Below, in pieces: positions 904 to 27,303 of a stretch of 64,000 bases of DNA. The DNA comes from an uncultured Haladaptatus sp. (GTDB taxonomy: Archaea > Halobacteriota > Halobacteria > Halobacteriales > Haladaptataceae), in assembly GCA_964399275.1 (NCBI GenBank), contig CAYNQM010000001.1, positions 29,463-93,462 of the forward strand. The letters are read 5' to 3'. The translations under genes and the position numbers were made by a program. Position 1 is the first letter of the stretch. Each line of letters begins with the position of its first letter. The notes under the pieces were generated by a model. The model was given only the letters and a program-made list of their open reading frames with translations, searched no databases and was not told the origin of the DNA.

Positions 904-2541
904 TCAGTCGTCTTCAGTTCTGACGGCGGTCTTGGTAGAACTGGTTTCCTTTTTTGGATTTGGCTTTCTGAAGAGAGTCGCTTCCTCGCCGAGAAGTACA
1001 TTTCCGCTATCCTCGCGGAGGGTCTTTATGAGTCCAATGACGGCAATAAGACAGACTATCGCGAACGGGCCACCAGTTATGATCGCGGCAGATTGGAGTG
1101 CATCCACGCCACCGATGACCATCAGAATCGACGCAACAGCGCCCTGCAAGACGCCCCAAAAAACCCGGTTGATCGACGAGGGTTCTTCCGTCCCTCCAGT
1201 CGTCATGATGGAGACCGCAAGTGTTGACGAATCGGCCGACGTTACGAAGAAAGTGGTCACTAGCACCAGGAAACCGAATAGAAGGAGGGTTCCAACCGGA
1301 AGGCCCATGAACTCGATTGCGCCGAAGAGGACGTATCCTGAAACTGCCTCTCCGTAGTTGTTGACAGGGACGAGAATGTTGGCGACGCCGTTGTGCTGGT
1401 AAATCGTCGCAGTCCCACCCACGATAGCGAACCAGGGAATCGTCGCAAGCGACGTTGCCACGATACCGGTAAACGCGACTTCGCGGACACTCCGCCCACG
1501 GGAAATGCGTGCGATAAATAGACCCGCGAACGGCGACCACGCGAGTGGCCACAACCAGTAGAAGACGGTCCACTCGTTCGCCCACGATGCGCCATTGGTG
1601 TAGTCCATAAAGAGGCTCATCTTGAAGAAGTCGCCCATGAGGCCACCTATCGCCTGCGTACTGAGTTCGAGCACGCGGAACGTCGGCCCGAACACGAGGG
1701 TTGCCACCATGAGTCCGCCGAACAGAAGCATGTTGAAGTTTGAGAGGCGACGAATCCCCTTATCGACTCCCAGGACGAGCGAGATGGTGAACAACGCCGT
1801 CATCCCCGTGATGACTGCGATCGTTCCAGCGTCACCGAGTTGAATCCCCCACTGGAACTCGAGTCCGGTAAGGAACTGACTTCCGATGAATCCCAACGAC
1901 GTTGCAACCCCACCCAGCGTCGCGAACACAGCGAGGATATCAATGACTTTTCCGGCCAGGTTGTCGACGTTGTTCGCACCCACAAACGGCGTTAGCACGG
2001 CAGATACACGGAGCGGTGCACCGTGAGCATGGACGAAGTATCCAATGCCGAGACCCATGACGGTGAAACAAGACCATTGGATAATTGCCCAGTGGAAGAT
2101 CGAATACTGCACCGCGATTGGAATTGCCGCTTGCGACTTCGATGCAGCGTCGTAAAGAGGTGGTACGCTCGAATAATGGAGGAGTGCCTCAGTAGGTCCC
2201 CAGAAAACGATGCCTGCGGCGAGTCCGGCCGAATAGATCATTGTGAAGTATGAGAAGTAACTGAACTCGGGAACCTCGTCACCGAGTTTGACCCGTCCCC
2301 ACGGACCAAGAATGAGGAAGACCAGGAAGGCAACGAATCCCAGCATCGCCAGCAGGAACGCCCAGTTGAAATGTTTAAGAACGAATTCTGTCGCAGTCGT
2401 GACGAGGCTCCCTGCCGCCTTTGGATTCAACGCGAAAACGACAACGAAAAGTAAGGTAATACCCGCACCGAATGCGAACACGATTGGTTCAATCTCGTCG
2501 ATGAACTCTTCAACCGAGCTTTGTTGGTTTGACCGACTCAT
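904..2541 (-). CDS. BCCT-family compatible-solute transporter (probable ectoine/betaine uptake)
   Basis: About 12 hydrophobic segments with BCCT motifs SAGLAAGIVFWG, FHWAI, ATLGGVATSLG, WTVFYWLWPLAWSPFAGLFIARISRGRSVRE and FFVTSADS. Confidence 0.92.
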   Translation of the reverse strand: MSRSNQQSSVEEFIDEIEPIVFAFGAGITLLFVVVFALNPKAAGSLVTTATEFVLKHFNWAFLLAMLGFVAFLVFLILGPWGRVKLGDEVPEFSYFSYFTMIYSAGLAAGIVFWGPTEALLHYSSVPPLYDAASKSQAAIPIAVQYSIFHWAIIQWSCFTVMGLGIGYFVHAHGAPLRVSAVLTPFVGANNVDNLAGKVIDILAVFATLGGVATSLGFIGSQFLTGLEFQWGIQLGDAGTIAVITGMTALFTISLVLGVDKGIRRLSNFNMLLFGGLMVATLVFGPTFRVLELSTQAIGGLMGDFFKMSLFMDYTNGASWANEWTVFYWLWPLAWSPFAGLFIARISRGRSVREVAFTGIVATSLATIPWFAIVGGTATIYQHNGVANILVPVNNYGEAVSGYVLFGAIEFMGLPVGTLLLFGFLVLVTTFFVTSADSSTLAVSIMTTGGTEEPSSINRVFWGVLQGAVASILMVIGGVDALQSAAIITGGPFAIVCLIAVIGLIKTLREDSGNVLLGEEATLFRKPNPKKETSSTKTAVRTEDD

Positions 2542-2951: not shown

Positions 2952-2968
2952 TACACAAAAACTGTGTA
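2952..2968. promoter_or_regulatory. TACACA-N5-TGTGTA inverted repeat overlapping the start codon of the 217-aa gene
   Basis: Perfect 6-bp arms. Related copies overlap start codons at 18106-18122, 40153-40169 and (N4 spacer) 36515-36530. Confidence 0.45.
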
Positions 2969-3621
2969 TGAGTAATGAGAAAGATGGGGAAAAAGAGCAT
3001 GAACGAATGGCCTTCTCGGCCGACCGGGGACGGGGAATTCTGACGCCGAGTGACCGTGAATTCCTTCTCGGACGAAAGACCGACTACACAGAACACTCAA
3101 AAAAGCAAAAGCGGAATCGGATCCGACGACGCCTTTCCAACGCAATTCTCGACTTCAGTATATTCTTTGAGCATCTCGAAGATCGCGACCGCAAGAACGT
3201 GTTCAATCCCGAATCTGAAGCCCGCGACGATTACACCCAAGGTATCATCGATATGCTCGGCTTTCTCCACCTTGGAACGATGGGCTACCACGTCCCGTTC
3301 AAAGATATGCTGGCACAGGGAGTCAATCGATCCGAACAAAAACTCGCTGGATCCGATTATCGGATGGTGACGGTCGATTTCAACGTCGATCCCGTCGGTC
3401 AAATCAACATCGACGAGGTCACCGAAAACCTGGAAGACGGGAACTTCGACGAGATTACTGACGAAGACCTTCGCGCATTTGTCCGGCTTCTGACCGAATC
3501 TGAGGACTTTTCGGCGACGTCGATGCGCACGGAGATGAAAGAACAGATGTCCGAGTTCCTTACGAACGTAAATGAAGCGGCTGAACAGCGAACCCGACGG
3601 GCCGAAGAACTGAACGACTAA
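2968..3621 (+). CDS. Conserved haloarchaeal hypothetical protein, possible DNA-binding regulator
   Basis: Basic N-terminal motif RGILTPSDREFLLG...KRNRIRRRLSNAILDF, a pattern I recall from haloarchaeal hypotheticals, followed by an acidic C-terminus. Divergent from the BCCT gene. Confidence 0.8.
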   Translation: MSNEKDGEKEHERMAFSADRGRGILTPSDREFLLGRKTDYTEHSKKQKRNRIRRRLSNAILDFSIFFEHLEDRDRKNVFNPESEARDDYTQGIIDMLGFLHLGTMGYHVPFKDMLAQGVNRSEQKLAGSDYRMVTVDFNVDPVGQINIDEVTENLEDGNFDEITDEDLRAFVRLLTESEDFSATSMRTEMKEQMSEFLTNVNEAAEQRTRRAEELND

Positions 3622-3720: not shown

Positions 3721-4104
3721 TCAGCCGAGATAGGCGATGGCGTCCATTTCAACACGGACATCGTCGGGCAAACGTGAGACCTCCACGCAGACACGAGCAG
3801 GTGGTACTTCAGCAAATTGCGCGCCGTAGGCCTCGTTAACACGATCGTACTCATCTAAATCCGTCAGATAGACGGTTACCTTGACAACGTCGTCGAGGGA
3901 TCCGCCCGCTTCTTCTACCGTGGCGGCGATGTTTTCGATCACCTGTTTGGTCTCAGCTTGCACGTCGCCCTCGACGTCCTCTCCGGTTTCGGGAACGACC
4001 GGTCCGTAGCCAGAGATATAGAGCGTATCGCCGGCGCGGACGCCCTGTGAATACGGATTGTCATTTCGCGGTGCCTCGTCTGTAACAATTGGCTGTGAGG
4101 TCAT
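3721..4104 (-). CDS. ridA: RidA/YjgF enamine/imine deaminase
   Basis: Motifs PYSQGVRAGDTLYISG, VVKVTVYL, PPARVCVEVSRLP (catalytic Arg) and VEMDAIA; 127 aa. Confidence 0.9.
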   Translation of the reverse strand: MTSQPIVTDEAPRNDNPYSQGVRAGDTLYISGYGPVVPETGEDVEGDVQAETKQVIENIAATVEEAGGSLDDVVKVTVYLTDLDEYDRVNEAYGAQFAEVPPARVCVEVSRLPDDVRVEMDAIAYLG

Positions 4105-4122: not shown

Positions 4123-5502
4123 TTAGATGTTCCGTTTTGCGGCGGTGGTTGTTTCGATGGCCTCGGTGATGATATCGAGTGCCGTCTCGGCAAGGTCTTC
4201 AGTGAGTACGAGCGGCGGAAGCAGTCGGAGGATGTTACCGTACCGACCCGCCTTCCACACGAGGACACCGTGCTCGAAGCAGTAGTCTTGGATAGCATCG
4301 GCCGTCTCTCCGTCGGGGTTTCCATCGGCATCAACGAACTCTGCGCCGATGAACAGTCCTTTACCGCGAACCTCTCCCAGGTTCGGGTTCCCGTCGGCAG
4401 CTTCTTTCAGCCTGGTTTGGATGTATTCGCCGAGGTCACGAGCGTGTGCGAGCAAGTCGTGTTCCTGAATATACTCGATGGCACGCGTTCCTGCACGCAT
4501 TCCGACGACGTGACCGCGATAAGTTCCGGCGTGGTCACCAGAGCCCCACGTGTCGAGGGATTCGTCGTATATCGTCGCCGAGAGCGGGAAGCCGACGCCG
4601 CCGAGGGCTTTCGCGGAGGTCATGATGTCGGGCGCGACATCGTACCACTCGCTTGCCCACCACTTTCCAGACCGGCCGAGTCCGCTTTGAATCTCGTCGA
4701 AGATGAGCGGTATGTCGTTGTCGGTGGCGAGATCGCGCACACCCTTTAGGAATCCTTTCGGTGGTGTGATAACGCCGCCTTCTCCCTGGATGGGTTCGAC
4801 GATAATTCCTGCAGGGTTTGCGAGCCCACCGTAAGGGTCTTCGAGAGTCGCCTGCAGTTCTTCGAGAGCGTGATCGACCGCCTCTTGTGGGCCTTTGTCC
4901 TGTCCGAACGGATACGGATACGGTGAGTGAACAACGTCCGGAAGGAGCGGTGTATAGTTCTCCTTGAACTTCTTGTTCGACGTGACGCTCATTGCACCAC
5001 TCGTCGCACCGTGGTATGCGCCACGGAAAGCGATGAGGCCGTCGCCGTCGGTGTTGTACTTTGCGAGCTTGATCGATGCCTCGACGGCGTCGCTGCCGGT
5101 TGGGCCGCCGAAGACGACTTTGTTGTTTCCTTGCAGTGAGTCCGGTGCGATCTCGTCGAGTTTCTCGATGAGTTCTAATCGAGCTTCCGTCGGGAAATCC
5201 ACCGTGTGGACGAGCTTGTCGGTCTGTTCGTGAACGGCATCAAGTACGTAGGGATTTCCGTGGCCGACATTGAACACGCCGATCCCGGCGAACATATCGA
5301 TGAAAGTGTTGCCGTCTACGTCACGAACCGTCGCTCCTTTTCCCTCTTCGAAGGCTATCGGGATGTCCTCAGGGTACGCAACGGCACTGCTGTCGATGGT
5401 TTGTTGCCGTTCAATAAGTGCGCGCGACTTTGGGCCGGGAACGGAGTTAACTGACGGTGCTTCATCGAAATGAATCTCTTCGATCGGTGGTCCAGTCGCC
5501 AT
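4123..5502 (-). CDS. Class-III PLP aminotransferase, diaminobutyrate:2-oxoglutarate transaminase (EctB/Dat-like)
   Basis: [42 protein letters not shown] (PLP Lys). HAGTYRG resembles HxGTFRGN of EctB/Dat. Start set at ATG 5502 (MATGPP). Confidence 0.82.
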
Positions 5503-5655
5503 ATGTGTGCCATTGTACAACAGTCATAAATAACTTGTCCACAGAAATCATCCAGACCGTACACAGATACTGATTTATCAGTGGATTTTGAAGATGGAAA
5601 CGAGAACGACGTAGTCCGTGAACAGTTAAGTATCACGGCGCTCCTTGTCTTGATA

Positions 5656-7317
5656 ATGCTACACACAAAGGGGTCACATCTCACAATTAACGTGGGAACA
5701 CGGACGACAGAGACTGAATCCATCGACGACATCCTCGAATCGTTCATCGGTGGACGAGGCGTGGCAACCAAACTCGCCCACGACCGTATTCCATTTGACG
5801 TCGATCCGTTCGGTGCGGAAAACCGCTTGTTCTTCGCAACCGGGCCGATGCAAGCATCGACGATGAGCTTTACCGGCCGAATGAATGCAACGGCAGTCTC
5901 GCCGCTCACCGACGGACTTGTCTCGTCGAACGCTGGCGGCTTCATGTCTCGAAACTTCATAGATACGGGCCACGCAGCCGTCGAAATCACCGGTAAAAGC
6001 GACGAACTCGTGATCATCCACGTTACCGACAGTGGCGTCGAGTTCGAATCGGTTCCGGATCTGACCGGCGCGACCGTTCCTGAGACGGTCTCGTATCTCG
6101 ACGACGAACATGATATCGGTGCCGACCAAACCGCCGTTATCGGGCCGGCCGGCGAGAATTTAGTCCGCTTTGCCTCCATCATGACCTCCGAAGAGCGGGC
6201 CTTCGGTCGCGGTGGCCTCGGCGCAGTGCTCGGTTCGAAGAACGTGAAAGCACTCACTTTCGACGGCGATTCAGCACCCGACATCGAGATACCCGCCTCA
6301 CAGATGGAAATTCACCGCGAGGCTGCGACGGACGACCACATCATGAAACAACAGGGAACGGTCGCAGTGATGGATCTCGCCAACGAAATGAACGGCCTTC
6401 CATCCTACTATTTCTCCGAACAACAATTTGAAGGAGTCGAGGGAATCAATGGCGATGCTGTCGCGGAGAAAAAATACAAGAAGGGCACCTGTTCTGCGTG
6501 TGCATTCGCCTGTAAACTTCCAACGAAGGACGAGGCGCGTGGTGTCGAGACTGAAGGACCTGAGTTCGAGGTTGCGATGGCGTTCGGGTCGAACTCTGGC
6601 GTTGACGATATCGTTGACGTAATGAAGTCCAACGAGTTGTGTGACAAGTACGGGTTGGACGCGATTTCGGCGGGGAACACCGTCGCTGCCTATCTCGCTG
6701 CCCAAGATGAATTCGGAAACGTCGACCTCGTCCACGAAATGGTCGAGAAAATCGCCCACCGAGAGGGTGTCGGCGACGACCTCGCCGAAGGTATCGCTCG
6801 CGTTCACGACGACCTCGATGTTCCGAACTGGACGGTCAAAGGCATGGACTTCGCGGCTCACGAGGGCCGTGTCCTCCACGGTCAAGGACTCTCGTACGCC
6901 GTCGCGAACCGCGGAGCAGACCACATGTACGCCGTGTTCTACTCACAGGAATACCCCCTTGTCGACAAAGACGACGCATACGACCCAACTGGGTTTGCGG
7001 GAAAACCACAACGGCTCATCGAGAAGGAAAATCAGATGGCCCTCAACGATAGTGGTGTCGTCTGCAAATTTTCACGGGACTATATGACTCCCGAACGGTA
7101 CGAGATGCTGTTCGGTGCCGACTTCGAGGAGTTGCTCGCCGTCGGCGACCGCGTTGTAACGCTCGAACGTCACTTTAACAACCAGCGCGGCTTCGACCGG
7201 TCGGACGATACGCTTCCCTACGAGATTCCTGGCTTCGAGGACGCTTTGGAGGAGTACTACGCGCTTCGCGAATGGGACGATGGGCTCGTTCCCGATGAGC
7301 AGATCCCGGCGGAGTGA
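5656..7317 (+). CDS. aor: Aldehyde:ferredoxin oxidoreductase (W/Mo-pterin, 4Fe-4S)
   Basis: GRGGLGAVLGSKNVKA, CSACAFAC (CxxCxxxC), EGPEFE, GLDAISAG and LAEG motifs. Start set at ATG 5656 (MLHTKG). Confidence 0.9.
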   Translation: MLHTKGSHLTINVGTRTTETESIDDILESFIGGRGVATKLAHDRIPFDVDPFGAENRLFFATGPMQASTMSFTGRMNATAVSPLTDGLVSSNAGGFMSRNFIDTGHAAVEITGKSDELVIIHVTDSGVEFESVPDLTGATVPETVSYLDDEHDIGADQTAVIGPAGENLVRFASIMTSEERAFGRGGLGAVLGSKNVKALTFDGDSAPDIEIPASQMEIHREAATDDHIMKQQGTVAVMDLANEMNGLPSYYFSEQQFEGVEGINGDAVAEKKYKKGTCSACAFACKLPTKDEARGVETEGPEFEVAMAFGSNSGVDDIVDVMKSNELCDKYGLDAISAGNTVAAYLAAQDEFGNVDLVHEMVEKIAHREGVGDDLAEGIARVHDDLDVPNWTVKGMDFAAHEGRVLHGQGLSYAVANRGADHMYAVFYSQEYPLVDKDDAYDPTGFAGKPQRLIEKENQMALNDSGVVCKFSRDYMTPERYEMLFGADFEELLAVGDRVVTLERHFNNQRGFDRSDDTLPYEIPGFEDALEEYYALREWDDGLVPDEQIPAE

Positions 7318-7408
7318 TGATCTTCACTTCGTTACACACGAATCGTAATCGCTGTACACAAAAAATTAAAATACGTCTTCGACAAATACCCTTTCGAGAA
7401 CAGGTAGC

Positions 7409-8587
7409 ATGCCACAGACAGTTTTCACATCCGGCGAATACGAAAGACGAATCGAGCAGACAAAGGAGCAGATGCGTGAACGGGAACTCGACGCGCTCGT
7501 GATTGCCGACCCGGCGAACATGAACTATCTATCCGGTTACGACGGCTGGTCGTTCTACGTTCATCAAGCTGTTATCATCACGCAGGATCGCGACGAACCG
7601 GTTTGGGTTGGTCGCGGACAGGACGCCAACGGAGCGCGAGCGACGACGTGGCTGGCAGAGGAGAGCATCCGAGCATACAGCGACGACCACGTCCAGTCGC
7701 CATACGACCTGCACCCGATGGACTTCTTCGCGGAAGTGTTGGAGGATCTCGGTGTCGACGAGGGCCAAATCGGACTGGAGATGGACGCGTACTACTTCAC
7801 GGCGAAGTCCTACCTGCGCCTGCAGAAGAACCTCCCGGAGGCTGAGTTCGAGGACACGACCCTGCTCGTCAACTGGGTTCGCGTAACGAAGTCCGAACAG
7901 GAACTCGACTACATGCGAGAGGCCGCACGCATCTCCGAAAACGCGATGGTCGCCGGACTCGACGCCATCGAGGAAGGCGTCCCCGAGTCGGAAGCGGCGC
8001 GCGCAATCTACAACGCGCTCATCGATGGCACCGAGGACTACGGCGGCGACTACCCCTCTATCGTTCCACTCATGCCATCCGGCGACCACACCGGAACACC
8101 ACACCTTACGTGGACCGACCGTCCCTTTGAGCGAGGTGACCCGGTCATCATCGAGCTCTCGGGTTGTCGGCACCGTTATCACTCGCCGCTTGCACGGACG
8201 ACGTACGTTGGTGACCCCCCGCAGGAAATGCAAGACCGGATGGAAATCGTCGTCGAAGGCGTAAACGCCGCGCTCGACGTCGCCGAACCGGGTGTCACCT
8301 GCGAGCGCGTCGAAAAGGCGTGGCGCGAGGTCATTCAGAAGTATGACTTGGAGAAGGAGGAACGTATCGGCTACTCGATGGGACTCGGCTACCCGCCGGA
8401 CTGGGGTGAACACACTGCGAGTCTTCGACCGGGCGACGAGACGGTACTCGAGGAGAACATGACGTTCCATATGATTCCCGGCCTCTGGTTCGACGACTTC
8501 GGAGTCGAACTCAGCGAGACGTTCCGCATCACCTCAACGGGTGTCGAGGTTTTGGCTGATTTCCCCCAGGAGCTGTTCTCTACGTAA
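7409..8587 (+). CDS. doeA: Ectoine hydrolase DoeA/EutD-like (M24 pita-bread fold)
   Basis: Carries DoeA/EutD-typical segments [31 protein letters not shown]...[28 protein letters not shown] and YPPDWGE...[23 protein letters not shown]. Confidence 0.85.
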
Positions 8588-8589
8588 CC

Positions 8590-9882
8590 ATGGCGGAAAC
8601 GACGTCCGAACATATCGACGCAACGGAGAGTGGAACGACGACGGGGTCAGCGCTTACGACCGCTCGTCGTCAACTAAAGCGCGCCGCGACGCACGTGGAT
8701 GTCGACGACGGCGTCGTTGAGCGATTGAAGCACCCCACGAAAGTCCAACGCGTCTCGGTGCCGCTCAAGCGTGACAACGGCGAGTTGGAGGTACTGACGG
8801 GATTCCGCGCGCAACACGATGACGTTCGTGGCCCGTACAAAGGCGGTCTCCGATACCACCCGGAGGTCACCGCGGAGGAATGTATCGGCCTCTCGATGTG
8901 GATGACGTGGAAGTGCGCCGTCATGGATATCCCGTTCGGTGGCGGCAAGGGCGGCATTGCCGTCGATCCGAAGGAACTGAGCGACGAGGAGAAAGAACGA
9001 CTCACACGTCGATTCGCCGAAGAACTCCGGGACGTTGTTGGCCCGAAGCAAGACGTTCCGGCACCTGATATGGGAACCGACCCCCAGACGATGGCGTGGT
9101 TTATGGACGCCTATTCGATGCAGCGTGGCGAAACGACGCCGGGCGTCGTCACTGGAAAGCCATCAGTCATCGGCGGTTCGTATGGCCGCGAAGAGGCACC
9201 GGGACGGAGCGTCGCGATCATCACGCGCCAAGCTATTGACTACTACGACTGGATCCTCGACGAAACCACCGTCGCCGTGCAAGGATACGGAAGCGTCGGT
9301 GCGAACGCAGCCCGTGCGCTCGACGAGTGGGGTGCTGACATCGTTGCCGTCTCCGACGTCAACGGCGCTATCTTCGACCCCGACGGATTAGATACGAGAG
9401 ACGTCATGGGCCACGACGAGCGACCCGGCATGGTTTCGGGCTACGACGCCCCTCAGCGGCTCTCGAACGACGAACTGCTCGAACTCGACGTTGACGTACT
9501 CATTCCCGCGGCAGTTGGGAACGTGCTGACGGCCGATAACGCCGACGACGTGCGAGCCGACCTCATCGTCGAGGGGGCAAACGGTCCAACCACGTTCGCA
9601 GCGGACTCCATCTTCGAACAGCGTGGCATTCCGGTTCTCCCGGATATCCTCGCCAACGCTGGCGGCGTGACTGTCTCGTATTTCGAGTGGTTGCAGGACA
9701 TCAACCGGCGACAGTGGACACTCGATCGTGTGAACGACGAACTCGAATCAGAGATGCTGCAGGCATGGAATGCGGTGAGCGGCGAAGTCGAAGCTCACGA
9801 CGTGTCGTGGCGCGATGCCGCATACATCGTCGCACTCAGTCGCGTCGCAACGGCCAAAGAGGAACGCGGACTCTGGCCATAG
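8590..9882 (+). CDS. gdhA: Glutamate dehydrogenase
   Basis: [47 protein letters not shown] and [12 protein letters not shown]. Starts 2 bp after doeA. Confidence 0.95.
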
Positions 9883-9938: not shown

Positions 9939-12900
9939 TTAGGTGCGGAGCGCTTCCTCGATCTTTTCGATTGGGTGGGTCGGCGTCTCGCCACCGTCTC
10001 TGTCTTCGAGTTGGGTTTGACAGGACGCACCGGGGGCGACGACTTCCTCACCGTCGCTTTCGTCAATCTGCTCGAAGAGGATGTTTGCGATCGCTTTGCT
10101 CATCGAGTGGTGTTCGGCCTCGTAACCGAACGACCCGGCCATCCCACAACAGCCCGAATCGAGAGCGTCAACTTCGTAACCGGCGTCGTGAAGCACCGAA
10201 GCGGCGTGGTGATCCTTCTTCGTCGCCTTCTGGTGGCAGTGGCCGTGGTAGGTGAGCGACTTGGCGGGTGCGTCGAACGTGAGTCCGAACTCGAATCGGT
10301 CGAGATACTCAAGAATGCCGTATGTGTTGCCCGCGACGCGTTCGACGTCACGACCCGACAGCAGGTCGAGATAGTCCGACTGCAGCATCACGGCGTCGGA
10401 TGGTTCGATGAGGACGACGTCCCAGCCGTTTTCGACTCGCGGGGCGAGAACATCGACGTTCGTCGCTGCACGTTCCCGCGACAGATCGAGAAACCCCTTG
10501 GAGTACGCCGGTCGTCCAGTCGATTCGACGCCTTGGGGTATCCGGACGTGGATGCCAGCCGCTTCGAGCACGTGAACCGCTGCCTTTCCTACCTCGGGAT
10601 GGTTGTAGTTCGTGTAGGTGTCAGGGAACAACAACACCTTGCGCGTCGCCTGTGACGCGGGAACCCGCGGGCCGCCGCGAGCCTCGAACCATTCCTCGAA
10701 GCTCTCTCGGTGGAATGTCGGGAGTGACCGCTCCCGGGCGATACCGACCACCTTTTCGAGGACGACTCGTGCTCCGGGAATCTTCGCAGCCCAATTGGAG
10801 ATGGGAGCGACCGTTGACCCGAGTTCGTTGAGCGCGTCGATGTTCGCGAATAGTCGGTCACGGAGCTTCGCGCCGTGCTCCTCGTGGTGAGCGTGTTCGA
10901 CTTCGGTCTTCAGTTTCGCCATGTCCACCTCGCTCGGGCAGTCGCGGGCACAGCCCTTACAGCCAATACAAAGGTCCATAATCTCGCGCATGAACTCGGT
11001 GTCGAGCGCGTCGTCGTCGAGATCGCCGCTCATCGCCTGCCGAAGCAGGTTCGCTCGTCCGCGGGTCGTGACGCTCTCCTCTTCGGCGGCGCGGTAGGTC
11101 GGACACATCACGCCGCCCGTGGTCTCCTGTCCGCCGCGACAGCCACCACAGCCGTGACAGAGTTCAACCATCCCTCGAAAACCGTTCTCGTTGTCCCAGT
11201 TCAACGCTGGATCGAACCCGGCGTCGAAGTCGTAATCGGGGTCGAATCGGAGGTTCTCGGTCATGTCGACGTCGCCACAGACTTGACCCGGATTGAGAAG
11301 CCAGTCGGGATCGAACGCCGACTTCAATTCACAAAACAGTTCCCAGACTTCCTCACCGTACAGTTTCCGGTTCCATTGGGTGCGTGCACGACCGTCACCG
11401 TGTTCACCTGAGACGGAGCCGTTGTACTCGACCACGAGGTCGGTCACAGCGTCGGAGATCGACTCCATCTGTGCGACGCCCGCCGGACTTTTGGTGTCGA
11501 CGAGCGGTCGCATGTGCATACATCCGGGACCGGCGTGCGCGTAGAACGAGGCGAACGTATCGTGGTCTTCGAGTACTGCTTGGAAGTCGGCAACGTACTC
11601 TGCGAGGTTCTCTGTGGGGACGGCCGTGTCCTCGATGAACGAGATGTGCTTCGCATCAGTCGTCCGTGAGAGGAGGATAGGCATCCCGCTCTTTCTGAGT
11701 TTCCAGAGCGTTGCCCGCTCCTCGGCGTCGTACGCTTCCAGCACGTCGAAGGCGCGAATCGGGTCGTCATTCGGTGCGACCGCATCTGCGTCCGCTTCGC
11801 TTTCGTCGGTCGGGGCCGCAGTCGGCACACGGTCAGCCACCAAATCCGCAATCTGCTGTCGGCCGTGCGCCTCATCCTCCGCGTAGAATTCGACGAGTAG
11901 CGCCGTCTCGGTTTCCTCCGGGAGCATCGCTGCAACCGTTTCGAACTCCTCGGTATCGCGGGCGAGATCGAGGAGAACGTCGTCGATAGCTTCGACGGCC
12001 GCAGGGTCGTGATTGTGGACGATGGTATTAACGTCGGCCATGGCATCCAGCAGATCGTGGTAGGTGAGTAATGCGACCGATTTCGTTTCGGGAACTGGTT
12101 CGAGCGAGATCGTTGCCGCCGTGATCACGCCGAGCGTTCCCTCACTTCCGGCGAAGACGCGAGCGAGGTTGACTGTTCCCGACGCTGCCTCTTGGACGAG
12201 TTGGTCGAGATTGTACCCCGAGACGTTGCGCTTCAACTGTGGATACACCTCGCGAATCGTCTCACTTTCCTCATCGACGATTCGACGGAGTACATCGTAG
12301 ATTCGGTTCTCGATCTCACCGTCGGCATCCGCGCGATTTCGGAGTTCGTCGAGCGTCACCTCACCGAATGTGGCGACCGTTCCGTCAGCGAGGACGGCTT
12401 CAACCTCTTCGATGTAGGCGTCCGTTTTCCCGTACTTCAGCGAGTGCGCACCCGTGGAGTTGTTGCCGATAGCACCGCCGACCGTGCTCCGGTCACCGGC
12501 GGCAGGATCCGGTGCGAACTTGAGGTCGTGAGGTTCCAGCGTCGCGTTGAGGTCTGCAAGCACTGCACCGGCTTGCACGTTGGCGACGCGAGCGCTGGGA
12601 TCGACATCCACGAGGTCGTTCATGTAAACGGTCAAGTCAAGTACCACTGCCTCGTTTGTCGCCTGACCAGCGAGACTGGTACCGCCCCCACGCGGAAGAA
12701 CCGGAATCTCGCGGTCGGCGCAGTAGTCAACGACGGCGGCGACGTCGTCAGTCGACCGCGGAAAGACGACGCCAACCGGTGTGACTTCGTAGGCGGAGGC
12801 GTCGGTCGCGTACAACTGTCGAGAGTACTCGTCGAACCGAACGTCGCCATCGACGAGCGTTTCGAAGTCCTCGACGAGTTCGTGTCGATCCACGGCACCA

Positions 12901-12986
12901 CTGGTGTAGTCGTACGCCGCTCGGGAATCATTGGCCGGGTCATCCGAGCCTGAGTCGTCTCGTAGACGGGGGTTCTGCGTCACCAT
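9939..12986 (-). CDS. FAD-linked/Fe-S 2-hydroxyacid oxidoreductase (GlcD-GlcF / D-lactate dehydrogenase-like fusion)
   Basis: RGGGTSLAGQ, GSEGTLG, GEHGDG, ferredoxin CxxCxxC...CP motifs and C-terminal CCG domains (HGHCHQ, CCGMAGSFG). Confidence 0.9.
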   Translation of the reverse strand: MVTQNPRLRDDSGSDDPANDSRAAYDYTSGAVDRHELVEDFETLVDGDVRFDEYSRQLYATDASAYEVTPVGVVFPRSTDDVAAVVDYCADREIPVLPRGGGTSLAGQATNEAVVLDLTVYMNDLVDVDPSARVANVQAGAVLADLNATLEPHDLKFAPDPAAGDRSTVGGAIGNNSTGAHSLKYGKTDAYIEEVEAVLADGTVATFGEVTLDELRNRADADGEIENRIYDVLRRIVDEESETIREVYPQLKRNVSGYNLDQLVQEAASGTVNLARVFAGSEGTLGVITAATISLEPVPETKSVALLTYHDLLDAMADVNTIVHNHDPAAVEAIDDVLLDLARDTEEFETVAAMLPEETETALLVEFYAEDEAHGRQQIADLVADRVPTAAPTDESEADADAVAPNDDPIRAFDVLEAYDAEERATLWKLRKSGMPILLSRTTDAKHISFIEDTAVPTENLAEYVADFQAVLEDHDTFASFYAHAGPGCMHMRPLVDTKSPAGVAQMESISDAVTDLVVEYNGSVSGEHGDGRARTQWNRKLYGEEVWELFCELKSAFDPDWLLNPGQVCGDVDMTENLRFDPDYDFDAGFDPALNWDNENGFRGMVELCHGCGGCRGGQETTGGVMCPTYRAAEEESVTTRGRANLLRQAMSGDLDDDALDTEFMREIMDLCIGCKGCARDCPSEVDMAKLKTEVEHAHHEEHGAKLRDRLFANIDALNELGSTVAPISNWAAKIPGARVVLEKVVGIARERSLPTFHRESFEEWFEARGGPRVPASQATRKVLLFPDTYTNYNHPEVGKAAVHVLEAAGIHVRIPQGVESTGRPAYSKGFLDLSRERAATNVDVLAPRVENGWDVVLIEPSDAVMLQSDYLDLLSGRDVERVAGNTYGILEYLDRFEFGLTFDAPAKSLTYHGHCHQKATKKDHHAASVLHDAGYEVDALDSGCCGMAGSFGYEAEHHSMSKAIANILFEQIDESDGEEVVAPGASCQTQLEDRDGGETPTHPIEKIEEALRT

Positions 12987-12992
12987 TGTTGG

Positions 12993-13964
12993 TCAGCTTG
13001 ATTCCGGTGCGAGTACTTGGTTCACCAAGTCGTCACCGGATTCGAGCCGAGCAACGTTCTCGGTAACGATGTCGGCGAGGCGGTTCCAATGGTTTGGGGT
13101 GTGGCCGCCGGTATGTGGAGTAATGAGACAGTTTTCGAGGCCCCACAGCGGGTGATCGTCGGGTAGCGGTTCTGGGTCGGTCACGTCGAGTGCTGCTCCG
13201 CGAATTTTGTTGGAGCGAAGCGCAGAGACCAAAGCGGCCGTATCGACGATACCGCCACGAGCAGTGTTGACGAGGACGCTGTTTGTCGGCATCGTCGCGA
13301 ACGCGTCACTGCCAATGAGGTTGCGCGTGAGGTCGTTGAGTGGACAAGCAATGACGACATAGTCGCTCTGTGAGAGCGCTCGGTGGACATCGTCCTCGTC
13401 GAACCCGAGGACTTCGTCGGTCGGGCCACCCTTCGAGGGCGTGTAACGAATACCGATCGTCTCGACCTCGAATCCCTGCAGTCGTTGAACAACTGCCTGC
13501 CCGATCGAACCGAGTCCGATAACGGTCACCGTGCTGTCGGTGAATTCACTCGACTGGAAGTGTCGCCACTGACTCTGTTGTTTGCGCCGCCATCCCTCGT
13601 GAAGCCTGCGGGCAAAAACGAGCATATTTCCGATGGCCTGTTCGGCGATACCCGGAGCGTGAATTCCGCCAGCGTTCGTAACAGCGACGCCCTGTGCTTC
13701 GAGTTCGTCCAGTGGAACGTGGTCTGTCCCGGCGAACGTACAGGCGAACAGTTCGAGGTCGGTTGCACGCTCGAGAAGGTCTTCGTCGAGAGAGATTCCT
13801 GTGACGATGCGGGCGTCTTCGACGAGTTCCCGTTCTTGTTTCGGCGTGCGAGCAAGCGCGACCGTCGCTTCCGGCAAGCGGTCGCGAAGCTGTTTGGCGT
13901 ACGATTCCATCGATAATCCTTCCGTCCCCTCTCGGAGGACGACAACATCGGCGTTCTCACTCAT
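12993..13964 (-). CDS. NAD(P)-dependent D-2-hydroxyacid dehydrogenase
   Basis: GLGSIG, VNTARGGIVD, GAALDVTDPEPL and LITPHTGG (catalytic Arg/Glu/His). Confidence 0.92.
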   Translation of the reverse strand: MSENADVVVLREGTEGLSMESYAKQLRDRLPEATVALARTPKQERELVEDARIVTGISLDEDLLERATDLELFACTFAGTDHVPLDELEAQGVAVTNAGGIHAPGIAEQAIGNMLVFARRLHEGWRRKQQSQWRHFQSSEFTDSTVTVIGLGSIGQAVVQRLQGFEVETIGIRYTPSKGGPTDEVLGFDEDDVHRALSQSDYVVIACPLNDLTRNLIGSDAFATMPTNSVLVNTARGGIVDTAALVSALRSNKIRGAALDVTDPEPLPDDHPLWGLENCLITPHTGGHTPNHWNRLADIVTENVARLESGDDLVNQVLAPESS

Positions 13965-14100
13965 GGCTAGGTCACGATTGCGTTTCGGGTGACGCGTGTC
14001 GGTAGTGTGGTGATTGTCACTACTTCACTTAGTCTTTTGTGTATTCGGCATCAACGAATGTTGTGTATTGTTAAGTGTGTGGGGTGTGAATGTGACACAT

Positions 14101-15378
14101 ATGTCCGCCTCGATTGAAGACCGATTGGTATCGTTACGACGTGATCTTCATCAACATCCTGAACCGGCGTGGCGCGAATTCTACACCACATGCCGTCTCG
14201 TCGAAGAGATACGTCAAATCGGCGTGGACGACATCGCTGTCGGGCCCGACGCCTACGATCCGGCCGACCGAATGGCCGTCCCCGAAGCGGACGATCTAAA
14301 CCGGTGGATCGACCGAGCACGCGAGCGGGGGGCTGACGACGATCTCCTGGAGAAAATGGTAGGTGGAAACACGGGCGTCGTCGCCGTCCTCGACAAGGGT
14401 GATGGTCCATCGGTTGGACTCCGCGTCGATATCGATGCGCTGTTTATCGAGGAATCGACCGACGAGGAACACTATCCAGCGGCAGAAGGTTTCCGCTCGG
14501 CATACGACGAATCGATGCACGCCTGTGGTCACGATGCCCATATGACGTGGGGTCTCGCCGTGCTAGAATCCATCAATAACAGCGATTTCGAGGGGACGTT
14601 CACGGTGTTCTTCCAGCCTGCAGAAGAAGTCTCTGGTGGCGGCCATCCGATGGCAGAGAGCGAGTACTGCGCCAACCTCGATCACCTTTTTGCAGTGCAT
14701 GTCGGTCTCGACCACCCGACAGGCGAGGTTGTCGCAGGCATCGAACGTCCACTTGCCATGTGCCACGTCGACGCGACATTTGAAGGAACATCGGCACATG
14801 CCGGTAAGCATCCGAACGAGGGAGACAACGCGATGCAGGCGCTCGGAACCGCTATTCAGAACACGTACGCGATTCCACGCCACAGCGACGGAATGACGCG
14901 AGTCAACATTGGCAGAGCTGAGGGAGGTACTGCAAGTAACGTCATCGCTGACGAAGTCACGGTACTCGGGGAAGCACGCGGTGAGACGACAGCACTCATG
15001 GAGTACATGAAAGAGGAACTCGTCGAAACGTTTCGCTCTTCCGCAACGATGCACGGCTGTGACGTCGATGTCGAAATTGTCAGTGAGTCGCCCCGTGCTG
15101 ACAGCGACCCGGAACTCGTTGACGTCGTCGCCACTGTCGCCGCAGACGTCGATGGCGTCGATACGGTGCTTCCGACGGCCGACTTCGGGGCAAGTGAAGA
15201 TGCGACGTTCCTGATGGAGCGAGTTCAAGAGAACGGTGGCTCCGCGACCTATCTCATCGTCGGAACGGATCACCCGGCGAGTCACCACACGTCAACGTTC
15301 GACGTAGACGAAACGAGTCTCCCGATCGGTGTCGAAGTGCTGACGAAGTCCGTCCTATCCGTGAGTGAGAGTGCATGA
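14101..15378 (+). CDS. M20D-family amidohydrolase (AbgA-like)
   Basis: RRDLHQHPE, RVDIDAL, MHACGHDAH, FQPAEE, ASEDAT and HH motifs. Start set at ATG 14101 (MSASIED). Confidence 0.9.
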   Translation: MSASIEDRLVSLRRDLHQHPEPAWREFYTTCRLVEEIRQIGVDDIAVGPDAYDPADRMAVPEADDLNRWIDRARERGADDDLLEKMVGGNTGVVAVLDKGDGPSVGLRVDIDALFIEESTDEEHYPAAEGFRSAYDESMHACGHDAHMTWGLAVLESINNSDFEGTFTVFFQPAEEVSGGGHPMAESEYCANLDHLFAVHVGLDHPTGEVVAGIERPLAMCHVDATFEGTSAHAGKHPNEGDNAMQALGTAIQNTYAIPRHSDGMTRVNIGRAEGGTASNVIADEVTVLGEARGETTALMEYMKEELVETFRSSATMHGCDVDVEIVSESPRADSDPELVDVVATVAADVDGVDTVLPTADFGASEDATFLMERVQENGGSATYLIVGTDHPASHHTSTFDVDETSLPIGVEVLTKSVLSVSESA

Positions 15379-16619
15379 ACGACCGAAGTGCAGCCGATAT
15401 AGTCACCGACGATGACATCACGTCCGCCCACGACAGAATCGACGATATCGTCAACCGAACGCCGGTCGATACCTCGACGACCTTTGCCGATATGAGTGGT
15501 GCGACCTCAGTCGGGCTTAAACTTGAGAACATGCAACGGACAGGCTCGTTCAAGATTCGCGGTGCCTATAATACGATGGCTCAGCTCTCAGACGAAGCGA
15601 AAGAACGCGGCGTCATCGCTTCCAGTGCCGGAAACCACGCACAAGGTGTTGCGCTCGCAGGAGATCTTCTCGGCATCGAGACGACAATCGTCGTTCCGGA
15701 AGTGACTCCGGCAGCAAAGATCGAGGCGACGCGCGGTTACGGAGCAGAGGTCATCGTCGAAGGTGAGATCTACGAAGACTCCTACGAATACGCATTGGAA
15801 CGTGCCGACGAGGAGAAATTGGAGTTCGTCCATCCGTTCAACGACGAAGGCGTCATCGCTGGACAAGGAACTGTCGGTCGGGAATTACTCGAACAATATC
15901 CCGACCTCGATACAGTCCTCGTCTCTATCGGCGGAGGTGGCCTCATCTCCGGAATTGCGACCGTTCTCAAGCAGCACGACCCGTCGATTCGAGTCATCGG
16001 TGTACAACCGGCAGGCGCGTATCACGCTAAACCCTCACTTGAACGCGACGAGATACGCGAGCTCTCCGAGATTGACACGGTTGCCGAGGGAATCGCTGAT
16101 ACCCGTCTACTCGAAAAGACGTTCGCTGTCATTCGCGAGTATGTCGACGACGTGGTCTCGGTAAGCGATTTGCAGATGAGCGTTGCGCTGACGCTGCTCG
16201 CAGAACGAGTGAAAACGGTCGTCGAGACGGCGGGTGCAGCGCCTGTGGCGGCACTCCTTTCGGACGCGGTCGATGTCGAAGGTGAACACGTTGTCGCCGT
16301 CGTCTCCGGTGGCAACGTGAATCTCACCGAACACAGCGAACTCACCAAAACTGGGCTAATGCAACTCGGTCGGTACGCCGAAGTCGATATCGCCGTCGCC
16401 GACTGGCCGACCGGCGTGAGTGCAGTAACGAACGCCACCGAGTCCCAGGGGGCGGAGTTAGACGTGCTCGAACGAACGCGTCGAACCGCTCAGGACGATC
16501 CGAACCGGACGCCGATCAAAGTGGGTATCGAAGGAAGTGGCACGGAACATCTCCAGTCGGTCATCGACGCGCTCGATTCACTCGACCAACTATCCGTCAC
16601 ATCACACACGCTCGACTAG
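15375..16619 (+). CDS. Threonine/serine ammonia-lyase (IlvA/TdcB/EutB-like) with C-terminal ACT-like domain
   Basis: KLENMQRTGSFKIRGA (PLP Lys), SSAGNHAQG, IAGQGT, GGGGLISG and SGGN. ATGA overlap with the amidohydrolase stop. Confidence 0.9.
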   Translation: MNDRSAADIVTDDDITSAHDRIDDIVNRTPVDTSTTFADMSGATSVGLKLENMQRTGSFKIRGAYNTMAQLSDEAKERGVIASSAGNHAQGVALAGDLLGIETTIVVPEVTPAAKIEATRGYGAEVIVEGEIYEDSYEYALERADEEKLEFVHPFNDEGVIAGQGTVGRELLEQYPDLDTVLVSIGGGGLISGIATVLKQHDPSIRVIGVQPAGAYHAKPSLERDEIRELSEIDTVAEGIADTRLLEKTFAVIREYVDDVVSVSDLQMSVALTLLAERVKTVVETAGAAPVAALLSDAVDVEGEHVVAVVSGGNVNLTEHSELTKTGLMQLGRYAEVDIAVADWPTGVSAVTNATESQGAELDVLERTRRTAQDDPNRTPIKVGIEGSGTEHLQSVIDALDSLDQLSVTSHTLD

Positions 16620-16762: not shown

Positions 16763-18106
16763 CTATCGTGCCGCGCTGATCGCTTCGGTGAAGATTCCGA
16801 CGCCGAGTTCGATTTCTCGTTCGGTGGAGTCCAGCGGTGGGAGGAGTCGAATCGTCTTCGACCCACAACCGAGCGTGAGGAGTCCACGTTTGAGCGCCTC
16901 CTGGACGACAGTATCCCGGCGTTCCGACGTGTCGAATTCGATGGCGAGCATGAGACCCTTCCCACGCACGTCCTCGACGTAATCGGGCGCATCATCACGC
17001 AGTAGCTCTTTCGCCTGTTCACCGCGAATGGTCGCGTTGGCGAGCAGGCCGTGTTCTTCGATGGCCTCCAGTGTGAACACGCCCTGCATCGACGAGAGGA
17101 TGTCGCCGCCGCCGAATGTCGAACCGAGACGGTTCTTTTCGCTCGGGAAAATGTCCGACCGGGAGATGGTTGCACCGACACGAAGTGCCTTTGCGCTGGC
17201 GATGATGTCCGGTTCAATGGGATAGTGATCCGAGGCCCAGATTTCACCGGTTCGGCCGATACCGGACTGTATTTCGTCGACGATAAGCGGGATGTCATAC
17301 TTCTCTTTGACATCTTGAATTTCTTGCATAAACTCGGTGCTGGGGAACCGATAGCCACCGACGCCCTGAATCGGTTCAAGGATGATGAATGCAACCTCAT
17401 CACGGTTGATATGGCCGTGCTTCGGATGTAACATGGTTCGGAGTTGCGAACCCTCTCCGGCGAAGAACCCACAATCGCAGGTCTCGGAACCACTGTCGTG
17501 GTTATCACAGAACGGAACTATCCGCATCCCGGAGAGTTCGGGATAGTGCCGGGTATACACTTCCTTCGAGTGAGTCACCGAGAGCGTCCCGAACGTCCGA
17601 CCGTGGAAGCTATTCTGAAAGGCAACCCCATACTTTGCCTCCGGAGTATTATCGTAGGAAATTTTCATACTGTTTTCAACGGCCTCTGCACCGGAGTTGG
17701 AGAGGAACACCGTGTCCATCCCGTATTGGCTGGAGACGTCACGTAGCTTCTCCATGAGATGGCTCGACCCGGGGATATCCGACGATTGCGGAGTCTCACC
17801 CGCCCCGAAGTACATATCTTGTCCCGCAATCTTCATCGGTTCGACAAGGTCGAACGCTTCGAGTTTGTCGAGGATTTTTTCATTGTTGTAGCCGAGCGGA
17901 GCGGCACCAATGTGACAGGTAAAATCGAGCAGGACATTCCCATCGACATCGGTCACAAACGGCCCGTCAGCTTCACGGGTGATATCCCAGACGAATTCAT
18001 GTGAGTATTCGCTCGGTGCAGCGTGTTTCGTGTGAAAGTCGATCCACTCTTTCGCGTTCGGCCCAGGAAGAGCATCTGCTGTAGGCTCCGCGGTATGCCT
18101 ATCCAT
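16763..18106 (-). CDS. Class-III PLP aminotransferase (GabT-like), second paralog
   Basis: SNSGAEAVE, SFHGRTFG, DEIQSGIGRTG, SAKAL and IRLLPPL. Start set at ATG 18106 (MDRHTAEP). Confidence 0.88.
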   Translation of the reverse strand: MDRHTAEPTADALPGPNAKEWIDFHTKHAAPSEYSHEFVWDITREADGPFVTDVDGNVLLDFTCHIGAAPLGYNNEKILDKLEAFDLVEPMKIAGQDMYFGAGETPQSSDIPGSSHLMEKLRDVSSQYGMDTVFLSNSGAEAVENSMKISYDNTPEAKYGVAFQNSFHGRTFGTLSVTHSKEVYTRHYPELSGMRIVPFCDNHDSGSETCDCGFFAGEGSQLRTMLHPKHGHINRDEVAFIILEPIQGVGGYRFPSTEFMQEIQDVKEKYDIPLIVDEIQSGIGRTGEIWASDHYPIEPDIIASAKALRVGATISRSDIFPSEKNRLGSTFGGGDILSSMQGVFTLEAIEEHGLLANATIRGEQAKELLRDDAPDYVEDVRGKGLMLAIEFDTSERRDTVVQEALKRGLLTLGCGSKTIRLLPPLDSTEREIELGVGIFTEAISAAR

Positions 18107-18122
18107 ACACAACAAGTGTGAA
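18106..18122. promoter_or_regulatory. TACACA-N5-TGTGAA inverted repeat overlapping the aminotransferase start codon
   Basis: Same geometry and position relative to the ATG as 2952-2968. Confidence 0.4.
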
Positions 18123-20216: not shown

Positions 20217-20314
20217 AGACGTTTGGTACCATTTCACGATGGTGTTTATACTTACCGAAAGACGTACCCGGCGGTACGTTCGACCGGCGCGACACAGCGA
20301 CTCAGAAGTTCGGC

Positions 20315-21556: not shown

Positions 21557-21856
21557 GCGTTTCACTCATTACCACCCGACTATTTCACGTTTGGCATAGA
21601 TGCGAAGGTTGTTAACTACCCTCCGCCGCGACGCTCACCCCGTCGGCTCGTAGCCGAATCGCTCGAACCGGGCTGGCGTCGGCTCCCGGGCGTCGCTGGT
21701 CGCGTACGGGCCGACGTAGACGCCCGTGAAGCTCCCACGGCCGGGCGTACGCATCGGGGTTGAGTAAAGATTCGGGGGCTGCAGTGCGAATCGACCGGCC
21801 GAGTCGCTCTGCCCAGACACACCGAGCGACGGTTTCGTGCGCGTGAAAGCTCTATC

Positions 21857-23305: not shown

Positions 23306-23469
23306 GTATGTTACGTCTCAGTAGAGGTACGAGGTTCTTACGGTAGCGACAAAGCGACATTCGAATATCACTCCCGGTCGGCGAACGTCCGCTTCGCCGC
23401 ACTCGAACACAGAAACCGCAGGAAAGCAGTCAGCAGCACGACCGTCTTCCGAACCCACTCCAGCGACGA

Positions 23470-27278: not shown

Positions 27279-27303
27279 CGCCACCTCGGAGCGTTTGTCC
27301 CAA

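What the first reader, a model, noticed from the sequence alone, without database searches (positions are those of the whole stretch)
14101..15378. M20D amidohydrolase as a possible non-orthologous replacement for DoeB/EutE
After ring opening the pathway needs an N-acetyl-DABA deacetylase. The only amidohydrolase in the cluster is this AbgA-like M20D enzyme. M20 enzymes are known N-acyl amino acid hydrolases. In bacteria EutD depends on EutE for efficient turnover, so a different fold filling that role would be new, and it might also handle the N-gamma isomer.
Basis: inference. Interest (0 to 1): 0.7.

Follow-up and report, generated by a model that had tools for sequence, protein, structure and literature searches.

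The report
Haloarchaeal stand-in for ectoine deacetylase
This salt-loving archaeon has an amide-cutting enzyme gene that almost always sits beside an ectoine-hydrolase-like gene and shares an upstream DNA motif with it, so it likely does the second step of ectoine breakdown in place of the usual enzyme, a swap already seen with a distant cousin in methane-eating bacteria.

Summary
The ORF is real: a 425-aa AbgA-like M20D amidohydrolase with intact metal ligands, in a haloarchaeal doeA cluster. The comparative case is strong. Among 250 other Halobacteria genomes, 87 carry the doeA-like gene; 81 of these have this M20D within 12 kb, and the other 6 have it elsewhere. No doeA-negative genome has a hit above 62% identity, and 0 of 251 have a true eutE. 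A TACACA-N16-18-TACACA pair occurs only twice in this genome: before doeA and before this gene. It is therefore likely the N-alpha-acetyl-(hydroxy)DABA deacetylase (about 0.58, untested).

The novelty claim fails. The methanotroph doeB, whose knockout accumulates N-alpha-acetyl-DAB, is itself an M20D enzyme (NCBIfam DoeB2), and a 2026 paper already lists this haloarchaeal cluster, with the amidohydrolase unassigned.

What is new: recruitment from a separate AbgA-like subfamily (25% identical to DoeB2), a candidate operator, a second cluster paralogue in about half of the relatives, and the whole cluster in Haloferax volcanii, where it can be tested. N-gamma activity has no direct support.

The parts
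14101..15378 (+). AbgA-like M20D amidohydrolase, doeA-linked clade A; candidate N-acetyl-(hydroxy)DABA deacetylase. Motif residues C142, H144, E175, E176, H200, H396; H233, N280, R293
14038..14067 (-). Candidate operator (TACACA-N18-TACACA) in the divergent D2HDH/M20D promoter, just upstream of a TATA-like TTAAGT at 14071-14076
15375..16619 (+). Threonine/serine dehydratase (IlvA-like, possible EutB analogue); start overlaps the M20D stop
12993..13964 (-). D-2-hydroxyacid dehydrogenase; core gene, divergent from the M20D gene
9939..12986 (-). FAD/Fe-S oxidoreductase (best model YdiJ D-2-hydroxyglutarate dehydrogenase, below cut-off)
8590..9882 (+). Glutamate dehydrogenase GdhB (over cut-off)
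7409..8587 (+). DoeA/EutD-like M24 hydrolase (E 1e-119 to H. elongata DoeA 6twk; 500 bits vs 613 cut-off)
7333..7360 (+). Candidate operator (TACACA-N16-TACACA) upstream of doeA
5581..7317 (+). Aldehyde ferredoxin oxidoreductase family (possible DoeC stand-in; ORF-finder start, true start probably later)
4123..5502 (-). Class III PLP enzyme AT1 (DABA-aminotransferase-like, below cut-off; top PDB hit is an Ala/Ser racemase)
3721..4104 (-). RidA-family imine deaminase
2968..3621 (+). Conserved hypothetical protein (DUF8102 by language-model look-alike); candidate regulator, with a perfect TACACA-N5-TGTGTA palindrome at 2952-2968
904..2541 (-). BCCT-family transporter
16763..18115 (-). Class III aminotransferase AT2; palindrome with 1 mismatch at 18106-18122, over the likely start

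Best explanation
This gene encodes an AbgA-like M20D amidohydrolase that sits in a conserved haloarchaeal doeA cluster lacking eutE, and it likely removes the N-alpha-acetyl group from the ring-opened products of ectoine and hydroxyectoine, doing the job of EutE/DoeB. Shown: family, fold, intact motif residues, linkage to doeA, absence of eutE, shared upstream motif. Inferred: BCCT imports ectoines; the DoeA-like enzyme opens the ring; this dimetal hydrolase releases acetate plus DABA or 3-hydroxy-DABA; a class III aminotransferase (GdhB recycling 2-oxoglutarate) and the aldehyde oxidoreductase take DABA to aspartate; the overlapping IlvA-like dehydratase, which would need the freed alpha-amine, starts the hydroxy branch with RidA, D2HDH, AT2 and the FAD oxidoreductase. 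The enzyme appears to derive from the AbgA-like lineage that haloarchaea carry as a near-universal single copy, separately from bacterial DoeB2.
For: Linkage: 87 of 250 Halobacteria genomes have the doeA-like gene; 79 have an M20D hit within 12 kb among the 150 listed matches, and fetched loci add G048 and G239, giving 81 of 87. The other 6 hold a 68-74% orthologue elsewhere (3 with doeA within 2 kb of a contig start, 3 in one genus with doeA detached). All 83 genomes with a hit of at least 63% identity are doeA-positive (threshold chosen after seeing the data); the best doeA-negative hit is 62%. In an independent set, 48 of 54 archaeal doeA loci contain it. eutE: 0 of 251 genomes over cut-off, best 116.6 vs 402.7 bits; one EutE-fold gene in 54 loci. 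Tree: a 72-row doeA-linked clade (SH-aLRT 95, quick tree) apart from the housekeeping copies, with clade-fixed substitutions such as P217, M220, R332 and A364. Motif: the direct pair is upstream of 42 of 49 clade-A genes and 20 of 55 doeA genes, 0 of 29 housekeeping and 0 of 20 clade-B genes, and occurs twice in 3.69 Mb. Precedent: the M20D-type doeB knockout accumulates N-alpha-acetyl-DAB (PMC7192451; family shown). H233, N280 and R293 are kept; their role in binding a free alpha-carboxylate is recalled from other M20 enzymes.
Against: No assay exists, and ectoine use by haloarchaea is unproven (PMC13188858 calls the clusters provisional). The DoeA homologue is under the TIGR02993 cut-off. 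D2HDH is as tightly linked (47 of 54), so linkage shows pathway membership, not the step. The protein scores only 97.8 bits on DoeB2 (cut-off 550), so the precedent is at superfamily level. In Bacillales, doeA loci also lack eutE (0 of 50) but only 23 of 50 carry an M20D, so an eutE-less doeA does not always come with one. A second paralogue (clade B) is present in at least 46 of 87 doeA-positive genomes and could take part of the role. The motif was derived from these same promoters, and related genomes are not independent. The nearest characterised subfamily members act on N-acyl-Glu/Asp (recalled).
Confidence: 0.58

Rival explanations
1. N-gamma route: the DoeA homologue gives the N-gamma-acetyl isomer; its free alpha-amine is removed (AT2 for ectoine, IlvA plus RidA for hydroxyectoine) to give 4-acetamido-2-oxobutanoate; D2HDH reduces it; the M20D then removes the gamma-acetyl group, and the carbon skeleton ends as D-malate/oxaloacetate.
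For: D2HDH is core (47 of 54 loci) and more often present than ilvA (37 of 54), shares the divergent promoter with the M20D gene, and has no place in the canonical pathway. H. elongata DoeA gives both isomers 2:1 and the fate of the gamma isomer is open (PMC5924519; PMC8739950). An Oceanobacillus doeA locus also holds a D-2-hydroxyacid dehydrogenase, RidA, an M20D-EutB pair and a tartrate-dehydrogenase-family enzyme. Two paralogues could split the isomers.
Against: The residues recalled as binding an alpha-carboxylate next to the cut amide are all kept. Class III aminotransferases usually take omega-amines (own knowledge). The same genes fit a hydroxy branch that follows early alpha-deacetylation.
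Confidence: 0.12
2. Late deacetylation, as in the arginine succinyltransferase pathway: N-alpha-acetyl-DABA is first transaminated and oxidised to N-acetyl-aspartate, and the M20D releases aspartate last.
For: The protein belongs to the AbgA-like subfamily, whose characterised members cut N-acyl-Glu or N-acyl-Asp (recalled). Both aminotransferases score best, below cut-off, on an 'acetyl ornithine aminotransferase family' model. R332 is fixed in clade A where housekeeping copies have Ser and could bind a side-chain carboxylate (position relative to the pocket not measured).
Against: The overlap with the dehydratase fits a substrate that still needs its alpha-amine freed early. The aldehyde oxidoreductase was seen in only 7 of 54 loci (10-kb flanks). 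The M20D precedent acts on N-alpha-acetyl-DAB directly.
Confidence: 0.12
3. The cluster degrades a different cyclic amidine or N-acyl osmolyte, and the M20D deacylates that compound's product.
For: DoeA is below cut-off; there is no eutC or aldehyde dehydrogenase gene and no gene over the EutB cut-off; the BCCT passes no substrate-specific model; no haloarchaeal growth data were found.
Against: The DoeA homologue is 45-50% identical to EutD proteins that sit beside true eutE and keeps Y50, H232, E249, R319, Y322 and E367, which align with H. elongata Y52, H238, E255, R326, Y329 and E374 (their catalytic role is recalled). Its Bacillales relatives sit beside eutB- and eutC-like genes.
Confidence: 0.13
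4. Another hydrolase (an AstE/AspA-fold protein, clade B, or the housekeeping AbgA-like copy) does the deacetylation, and this gene has a side role.
For: The genome has 12 AstE/AspA-fold matches and 15 M20 matches. AstE/AspA-fold genes lie near the cluster in 5 of 20 extended loci.
Against: Those EutE-fold hits occur in 237 of 250 genomes regardless of doeA and travel with a threonine-synthase-like gene. Clade B was not found in G000 or in the H. volcanii cluster and lacks the direct-pair motif.
Confidence: 0.05

Closest known systems
DoeB2, N(2)-acetyl-L-2,4-diaminobutanoate deacetylase of methylotrophs (NCBIfam NF038260; doeB of PMC7192451)
   Same: M20D fold and metal-ligand motif; encoded with a doeA-type hydrolase (doeB2-aminotransferase-doeA in 5 of 5 loci); proposed step.
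   Different: 25% identity over 328 aligned columns; 97.8 vs 550 bits; separate clade; lacks the AbgA-type insert near residues 44-90; pairs with DoeA2 rather than this EutD-like DoeA.
EutE/DoeB (TIGR02994, AstE/AspA fold) of Ruegeria and Halomonas
   Same: Proposed reaction and pathway position.
   Different: Unrelated fold (PF24827 vs PF01546; best pairwise E 0.042); eutE directly follows eutD, whereas this gene lies 2.3-9.8 kb from doeA, mostly next to D2HDH.
AbgA, p-aminobenzoyl-glutamate hydrolase subunit A (PDB 3io1), and the near-universal haloarchaeal AbgA-like copy
   Same: Closest structure and subfamily; 35-37% identical to enterobacterial AbgA-like proteins, about 52-62% to the housekeeping haloarchaeal copies.
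   Different: No abgB or abgT beside it; own clade with fixed substitutions; restricted to doeA-positive genomes in the sample.
Putative ectoine catabolism region of Halobacteria (PMC13188858, Fig. S11)
   Same: Same gene set, including the amidohydrolase-ilvA pair, in Haloprofundus halobius and Halomarina pelagica.
   Different: In the parts read, the paper labels the gene 'amidohydrolase (aminopeptidase)' and assigns it no step; no operator or second paralogue was seen there.

Membership tests
M20D amidohydrolase | TIGR01891 over cut-off; PF01546 plus PF07687 | tested here: met
   249.7 vs 153.75 bits
M20D amidohydrolase | Cys/His/Glu/His/His metal-ligand set and catalytic Glu (roles recalled) | tested here: met
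   C142, H144, E175, E176, H200, H396 invariant or near-invariant
M20D amidohydrolase | Two-domain M20 fold | tested here: met
   model pLDDT 94; Foldseek top hits 3io1, 6slf, 4ewt, 1ysj
AbgA-like subfamily | Groups with AbgA and carries the N-terminal insert | tested here: met
   (AbgA-like clade SH-aLRT 100, quick tree)
AbgA proper (PABA-Glu hydrolase) | abgB/abgT partners adjacent | tested here: not met
   neighbours are D2HDH and ilvA-like
EutE/DoeB (TIGR02994) | AstE/AspA fold, HMM cut-off | tested here: not met
   no TIGR02994 or PF24827 hit
DoeB2 (NF038260) | Equivalog cut-off of 550 bits | tested here: not met
   97.8 bits
DoeB2 (NF038260) | Same clade and doeB2-doeD-doeA2 operon | tested here: not met
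N-acetyl-DABA deacetylase (EC 3.5.1.125), by function | Linked to doeA where eutE is missing | tested here: met
   81 of 87 within 12 kb; eutE over cut-off in 0 of 251
N-acetyl-DABA deacetylase (EC 3.5.1.125), by function | Hydrolyses N-alpha-acetyl-DABA | not testable with these tools
   needs an assay or knockout
EutD/EutE-type bi-module | Physical or kinetic coupling to DoeA | not tested

The most novel reading that the evidence does not exclude
Haloarchaea run their own ectoine/hydroxyectoine route, under an undescribed DUF8102 regulator binding TACACA repeats, in which AbgA-like enzymes strip the N-gamma acetyl group (clade A and its sister paralogue B splitting the alpha and gamma isomers) and a D-2-hydroxyacid relay delivers the carbon as D-malate. 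This would give the 'dead-end' gamma isomer a catabolic fate.
Probability: 0.13. Interest if true: 0.7.

Novelty: new variant of a known kind. Interest (0 to 1): 0.38.

Why it matters
Ectoine use by archaea is predicted but untested. This work names the likely missing deacetylase, a candidate operator and regulator, and shows that the whole cluster lies on Haloferax volcanii pHV3 (HVO_RS01245-01300), so one knockout series can test the pathway. It also points to repeated pairing of different M20D lineages with eutE-less doeA genes, which surveys that require adjacent eutD-eutE would miss. The swap of fold itself is not new.

Tried and rejected
Expression: no RNA holder listed. A true eutE elsewhere: not found in G000 (85% complete) or in 250 relatives. 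AstE/AspA-fold genes near some clusters: rejected as a separate module. The C6 paralogue (62%) is not clade B; it groups with a copy from doeA-negative G169. Literature: no paper assigning this gene a step was found (open-access library only; the H. volcanii old-style tags used were recalled, and gave 0 papers). Mais et al. 2020 was not held, so EutD active-site roles are recalled. PMC8305020 has no 'ectoine'; PMC3102087 mentions it only in a reference. The doeB primer found nothing in metagenome contigs. Both trees are quick searches without bootstrap; the careful wide tree did not finish. Palindrome spacings of 4 and 6 gave little signal; one gave some. The palindrome at 40153 overlaps an unrelated gene start, so sites over start codons (including AT2) may partly reflect start context.

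Full report
Observation. The ORF at 14101-15378 (+) is real: 425 aa, ATG at 14101, with a stop overlapping the start of an ilvA-like dehydratase gene. It passes TIGR01891 and carries both M20 Pfam domains. Its closest solved relative by sequence and by predicted fold is Klebsiella AbgA, 3io1. The M20D motif residues C142, H144, E175, E176, H200 and H396 are intact. The host is a haloarchaeon: the nearest named DoeA is 95% identical (Halogranum amylolyticum) and the nearest named M20D is 95% identical (Haladaptatus sp.). The cluster holds a BCCT transporter, a conserved hypothetical protein, RidA, two class III PLP enzymes, an aldehyde ferredoxin oxidoreductase, a DoeA-like hydrolase, GdhB, an FAD/Fe-S oxidoreductase and a D-2-hydroxyacid dehydrogenase.

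Is the DoeA homologue credible? It scores 500 bits on TIGR02993 (cut-off 613) and E 1e-119 to H. elongata DoeA, against 1e-17 to creatinase. It is 45-50% identical to EutD proteins next to true eutE. Y50, H232, E249, R319, Y322 and E367 are invariant in 37 aligned sequences and align with H. elongata Y52, H238, E255, R326, Y329 and E374. That these residues are catalytic is recalled from Mais et al. 2020, which was not held.

Co-occurrence. In 250 other Halobacteria genomes (at least 90% complete), 87 have the doeA-like gene and 242 have some AbgA-like M20D. Among the 150 listed M20D matches (313 were not listed), 79 of the 87 doeA genomes have one within 12 kb; fetched loci add G048 and G239. 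The other six have a 68-74% orthologue elsewhere: three have doeA within 2 kb of a contig start, three belong to one genus; in the two of these that were fetched the rest of the cluster lies apart from doeA. All 83 genomes with a hit of at least 63% are doeA-positive; the best doeA-negative hit is 62%. This threshold was set after the fact, and related genomes are not independent. In 54 archaeal doeA loci from a separate scan, 48 contain the gene; of the six misses three are short or cut contigs and two are second doeA copies, and all five genomes checked hold a 68-75% orthologue. No genome of 251 has a true eutE (best 116.6 vs 402.7 bits); weak EutE-fold hits occur in 237 of 250 regardless of doeA.

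Phylogeny. A quick tree of 134 proteins separates the housekeeping copies, a doeA-linked clade A containing this gene (72 rows, SH-aLRT 95) and a second doeA-linked clade B (23 rows, 100) lying beside the hypothetical protein, ridA and AT1. Clade B was found at 71% identity or more in 46 genomes, all doeA-positive, and not in G000 or the H. volcanii cluster. A and B share P217 and M220 (housekeeping F, V); A has fixed R332, F362, A364 and W150. A wider quick tree of 57 selected proteins places all haloarchaeal proteins inside the AbgA-like clade (100), apart from DoeB2 and from the Bacillales doeA-linked M20D clade.

Shared upstream motif. Upstream regions show TACACA/TGTGTA half-sites. A direct pair was found before 42 of 49 clade-A genes and 20 of 55 doeA genes, but 0 of 29 housekeeping and 0 of 20 clade-B genes. 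A TACACA-N5-TGTGTA palindrome with at most 3 mismatches was found before 38 of 55 doeA, 30 of 49 clade A, 28 of 30 AT2, 9 of 17 AT1, 9 of 14 hypothetical-protein genes, 4 of 20 clade B, 0 of 18 BCCT and 0 of 29 housekeeping genes; shuffles give 2-5%. In G000 the direct pair occurs twice in 3.69 Mb, at 7333 and 14038, and the only perfect palindrome is at 2952, over the start of the DUF8102-like gene. The motif was derived from these promoters, so this is suggestive. In H. volcanii the palindrome signal alone is weak: 5 sites against 1.3 expected, with 2 of 100 shuffles reaching 5.

What is already known. PMC7192451 (passages, section 13, supplement rows seen) reports that a methanotroph doeB mutant accumulates N-alpha-acetyl-DAB, that the 393-aa protein is only 22% identical to H. 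elongata DoeB, and that DoeA alone made the alpha isomer in E. coli. Its main text has no occurrence of 'amidohydrolase' or 'peptidase'. Both published primers match a 393-aa gene in G818, which is an M20D enzyme scoring 663.5 bits on NF038260 DoeB2. Five further DoeB2 genes from 300 Gammaproteobacteria all lie in doeB2-aminotransferase-doeA order. So an M20 fold replacing EutE has genetic support and a curated model. PMC13188858 (abstract, passages, section 8, supplement file 1 part 2 of 3) lists this haloarchaeal cluster, labels the gene 'amidohydrolase (aminopeptidase)', notes an amidohydrolase in eutE-less Bacillota clusters, and calls all of them provisional. PMC8739950 and PMC5924519 (passages) support the EutD/EutE bi-module, say no stable complex was seen, and leave the gamma isomer unexplained. 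PMC13595746 (passages) assigns doeA-D genes partly to Halobacteriota. An earlier scan note reached the same view of the cluster; it is a lead, not support.

Counter-evidence from bacteria. In the Oceanobacillus order sample, 71 of 251 genomes have a doeA-like gene. Of 50 loci examined (40 fetched from 84 matches, plus 10; some cut by contig ends), none has eutE, 23 have an M20D, and 40 have a cystathionine-gamma-synthase-family gene. An M20D is therefore common but not obligatory beside eutE-less doeA outside haloarchaea.

Mechanism. Most likely (0.58, inferred): early removal of the N-alpha-acetyl group from acetyl-DABA and its 3-hydroxy form. This fits the kept H233/N280/R293 set (role recalled), the overlap with a PLP dehydratase that needs a free alpha-amine, and the DoeB2 precedent. 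Rivals are an N-gamma route through a 2-oxo/2-hydroxy acid (0.12), prompted by D2HDH being core (47 of 54 loci, against 37 of 54 for ilvA); late deacetylation of N-acetyl-aspartate (0.12); a non-ectoine substrate for the whole cluster (0.13); and another hydrolase doing the step (0.05).

Verdict. The functional guess is well supported by genomics but untested, and the claimed novelty is mostly pre-empted. It is not a member of EutE or DoeB2 but likely works like them. It is a new variant: a separate M20D subfamily paired with doeA, with a candidate operator, a sister paralogue, and a ready test system in H. volcanii pHV3. Interest 0.38.

Noticed in passing
window 2952-2968, 7333-7360, 14038-14067, 18106-18122, 5560-5576, 2793-2809: TACACA/TGTGTA half-site motif in the cluster's promoters; the perfect palindrome lies over the start of the DUF8102-like gene 2968-3621, suggesting an undescribed autoregulated transcription factor.
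   Followed up: partly
L153:5426-6703, L221:33635-34915 (N. magadii NMAG_RS18215): Second AbgA-like paralogue (clade B) in about half of doeA-positive haloarchaea, upstream of the hypothetical gene, with its own conserved promoter sequence.
   Followed up: partly
L260:14465-15667 and 39 other Bacillales loci: A cystathionine-gamma-synthase-family gene (PRK08249, over cut-off) lies at doeA in 40 of 50 loci, often with homoserine dehydrogenase and an aldehyde dehydrogenase; it may be a gamma-lyase route for acetyl-DABA, and may be the gene labelled atf in PMC13188858 (figure not seen).
   Followed up: partly
L035:9992-20710 (Oceanobacillus senegalensis): doeA beside a D-2-hydroxyacid dehydrogenase, semialdehyde dehydrogenase, RidA, an overlapping M20D-EutB pair, D-amino-acid transaminase, alanine racemase and a tartrate-dehydrogenase-family enzyme: a gene set that echoes the haloarchaeal one with different families.
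   Followed up: partly
L053:9113-11179, L054 (Haladaptatus plasmids): Second doeA copies; in L053 it directly follows an EutA-like racemase gene (131.8 bits) with an IclR regulator nearby and no M20D.
   Followed up: no
L104:3919-6271 and 11468-13877 (Taklimakanibacter albus): Two doeA-like/M20D tandem pairs in one alphaproteobacterial locus, a further M20D lineage paired with doeA.
   Followed up: no
G000 C85:3-1801: Second doeA-gdhB pair (90% identical over the 169 aa present) cut by a contig start; paralogue or bin contamination.
   Followed up: no
G000 C6:24000-36000 (L159): Separate module with ABC-transporter-like genes, an AstE/AspA-fold gene, an ilvA-like gene and a 62% AbgA-like paralogue; part of it recurs near a doeA copy in G024.
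   Followed up: partly
window 4123-5502: AT1's best PDB match is an archaeal Ala/Ser racemase (9wqz, E 2e-88), so it may be an epimerase rather than the DABA transaminase.
   Followed up: no
window 19446-31509 and 36883-40159: Adjacent sugar-acid/xylan catabolic region: SDR, enolase-family dehydratase, 2,5-dioxovalerate dehydrogenase, GH3 beta-xylosidase-like genes, uronate isomerase, mannonate dehydratase, ABC ATPase.
   Followed up: no
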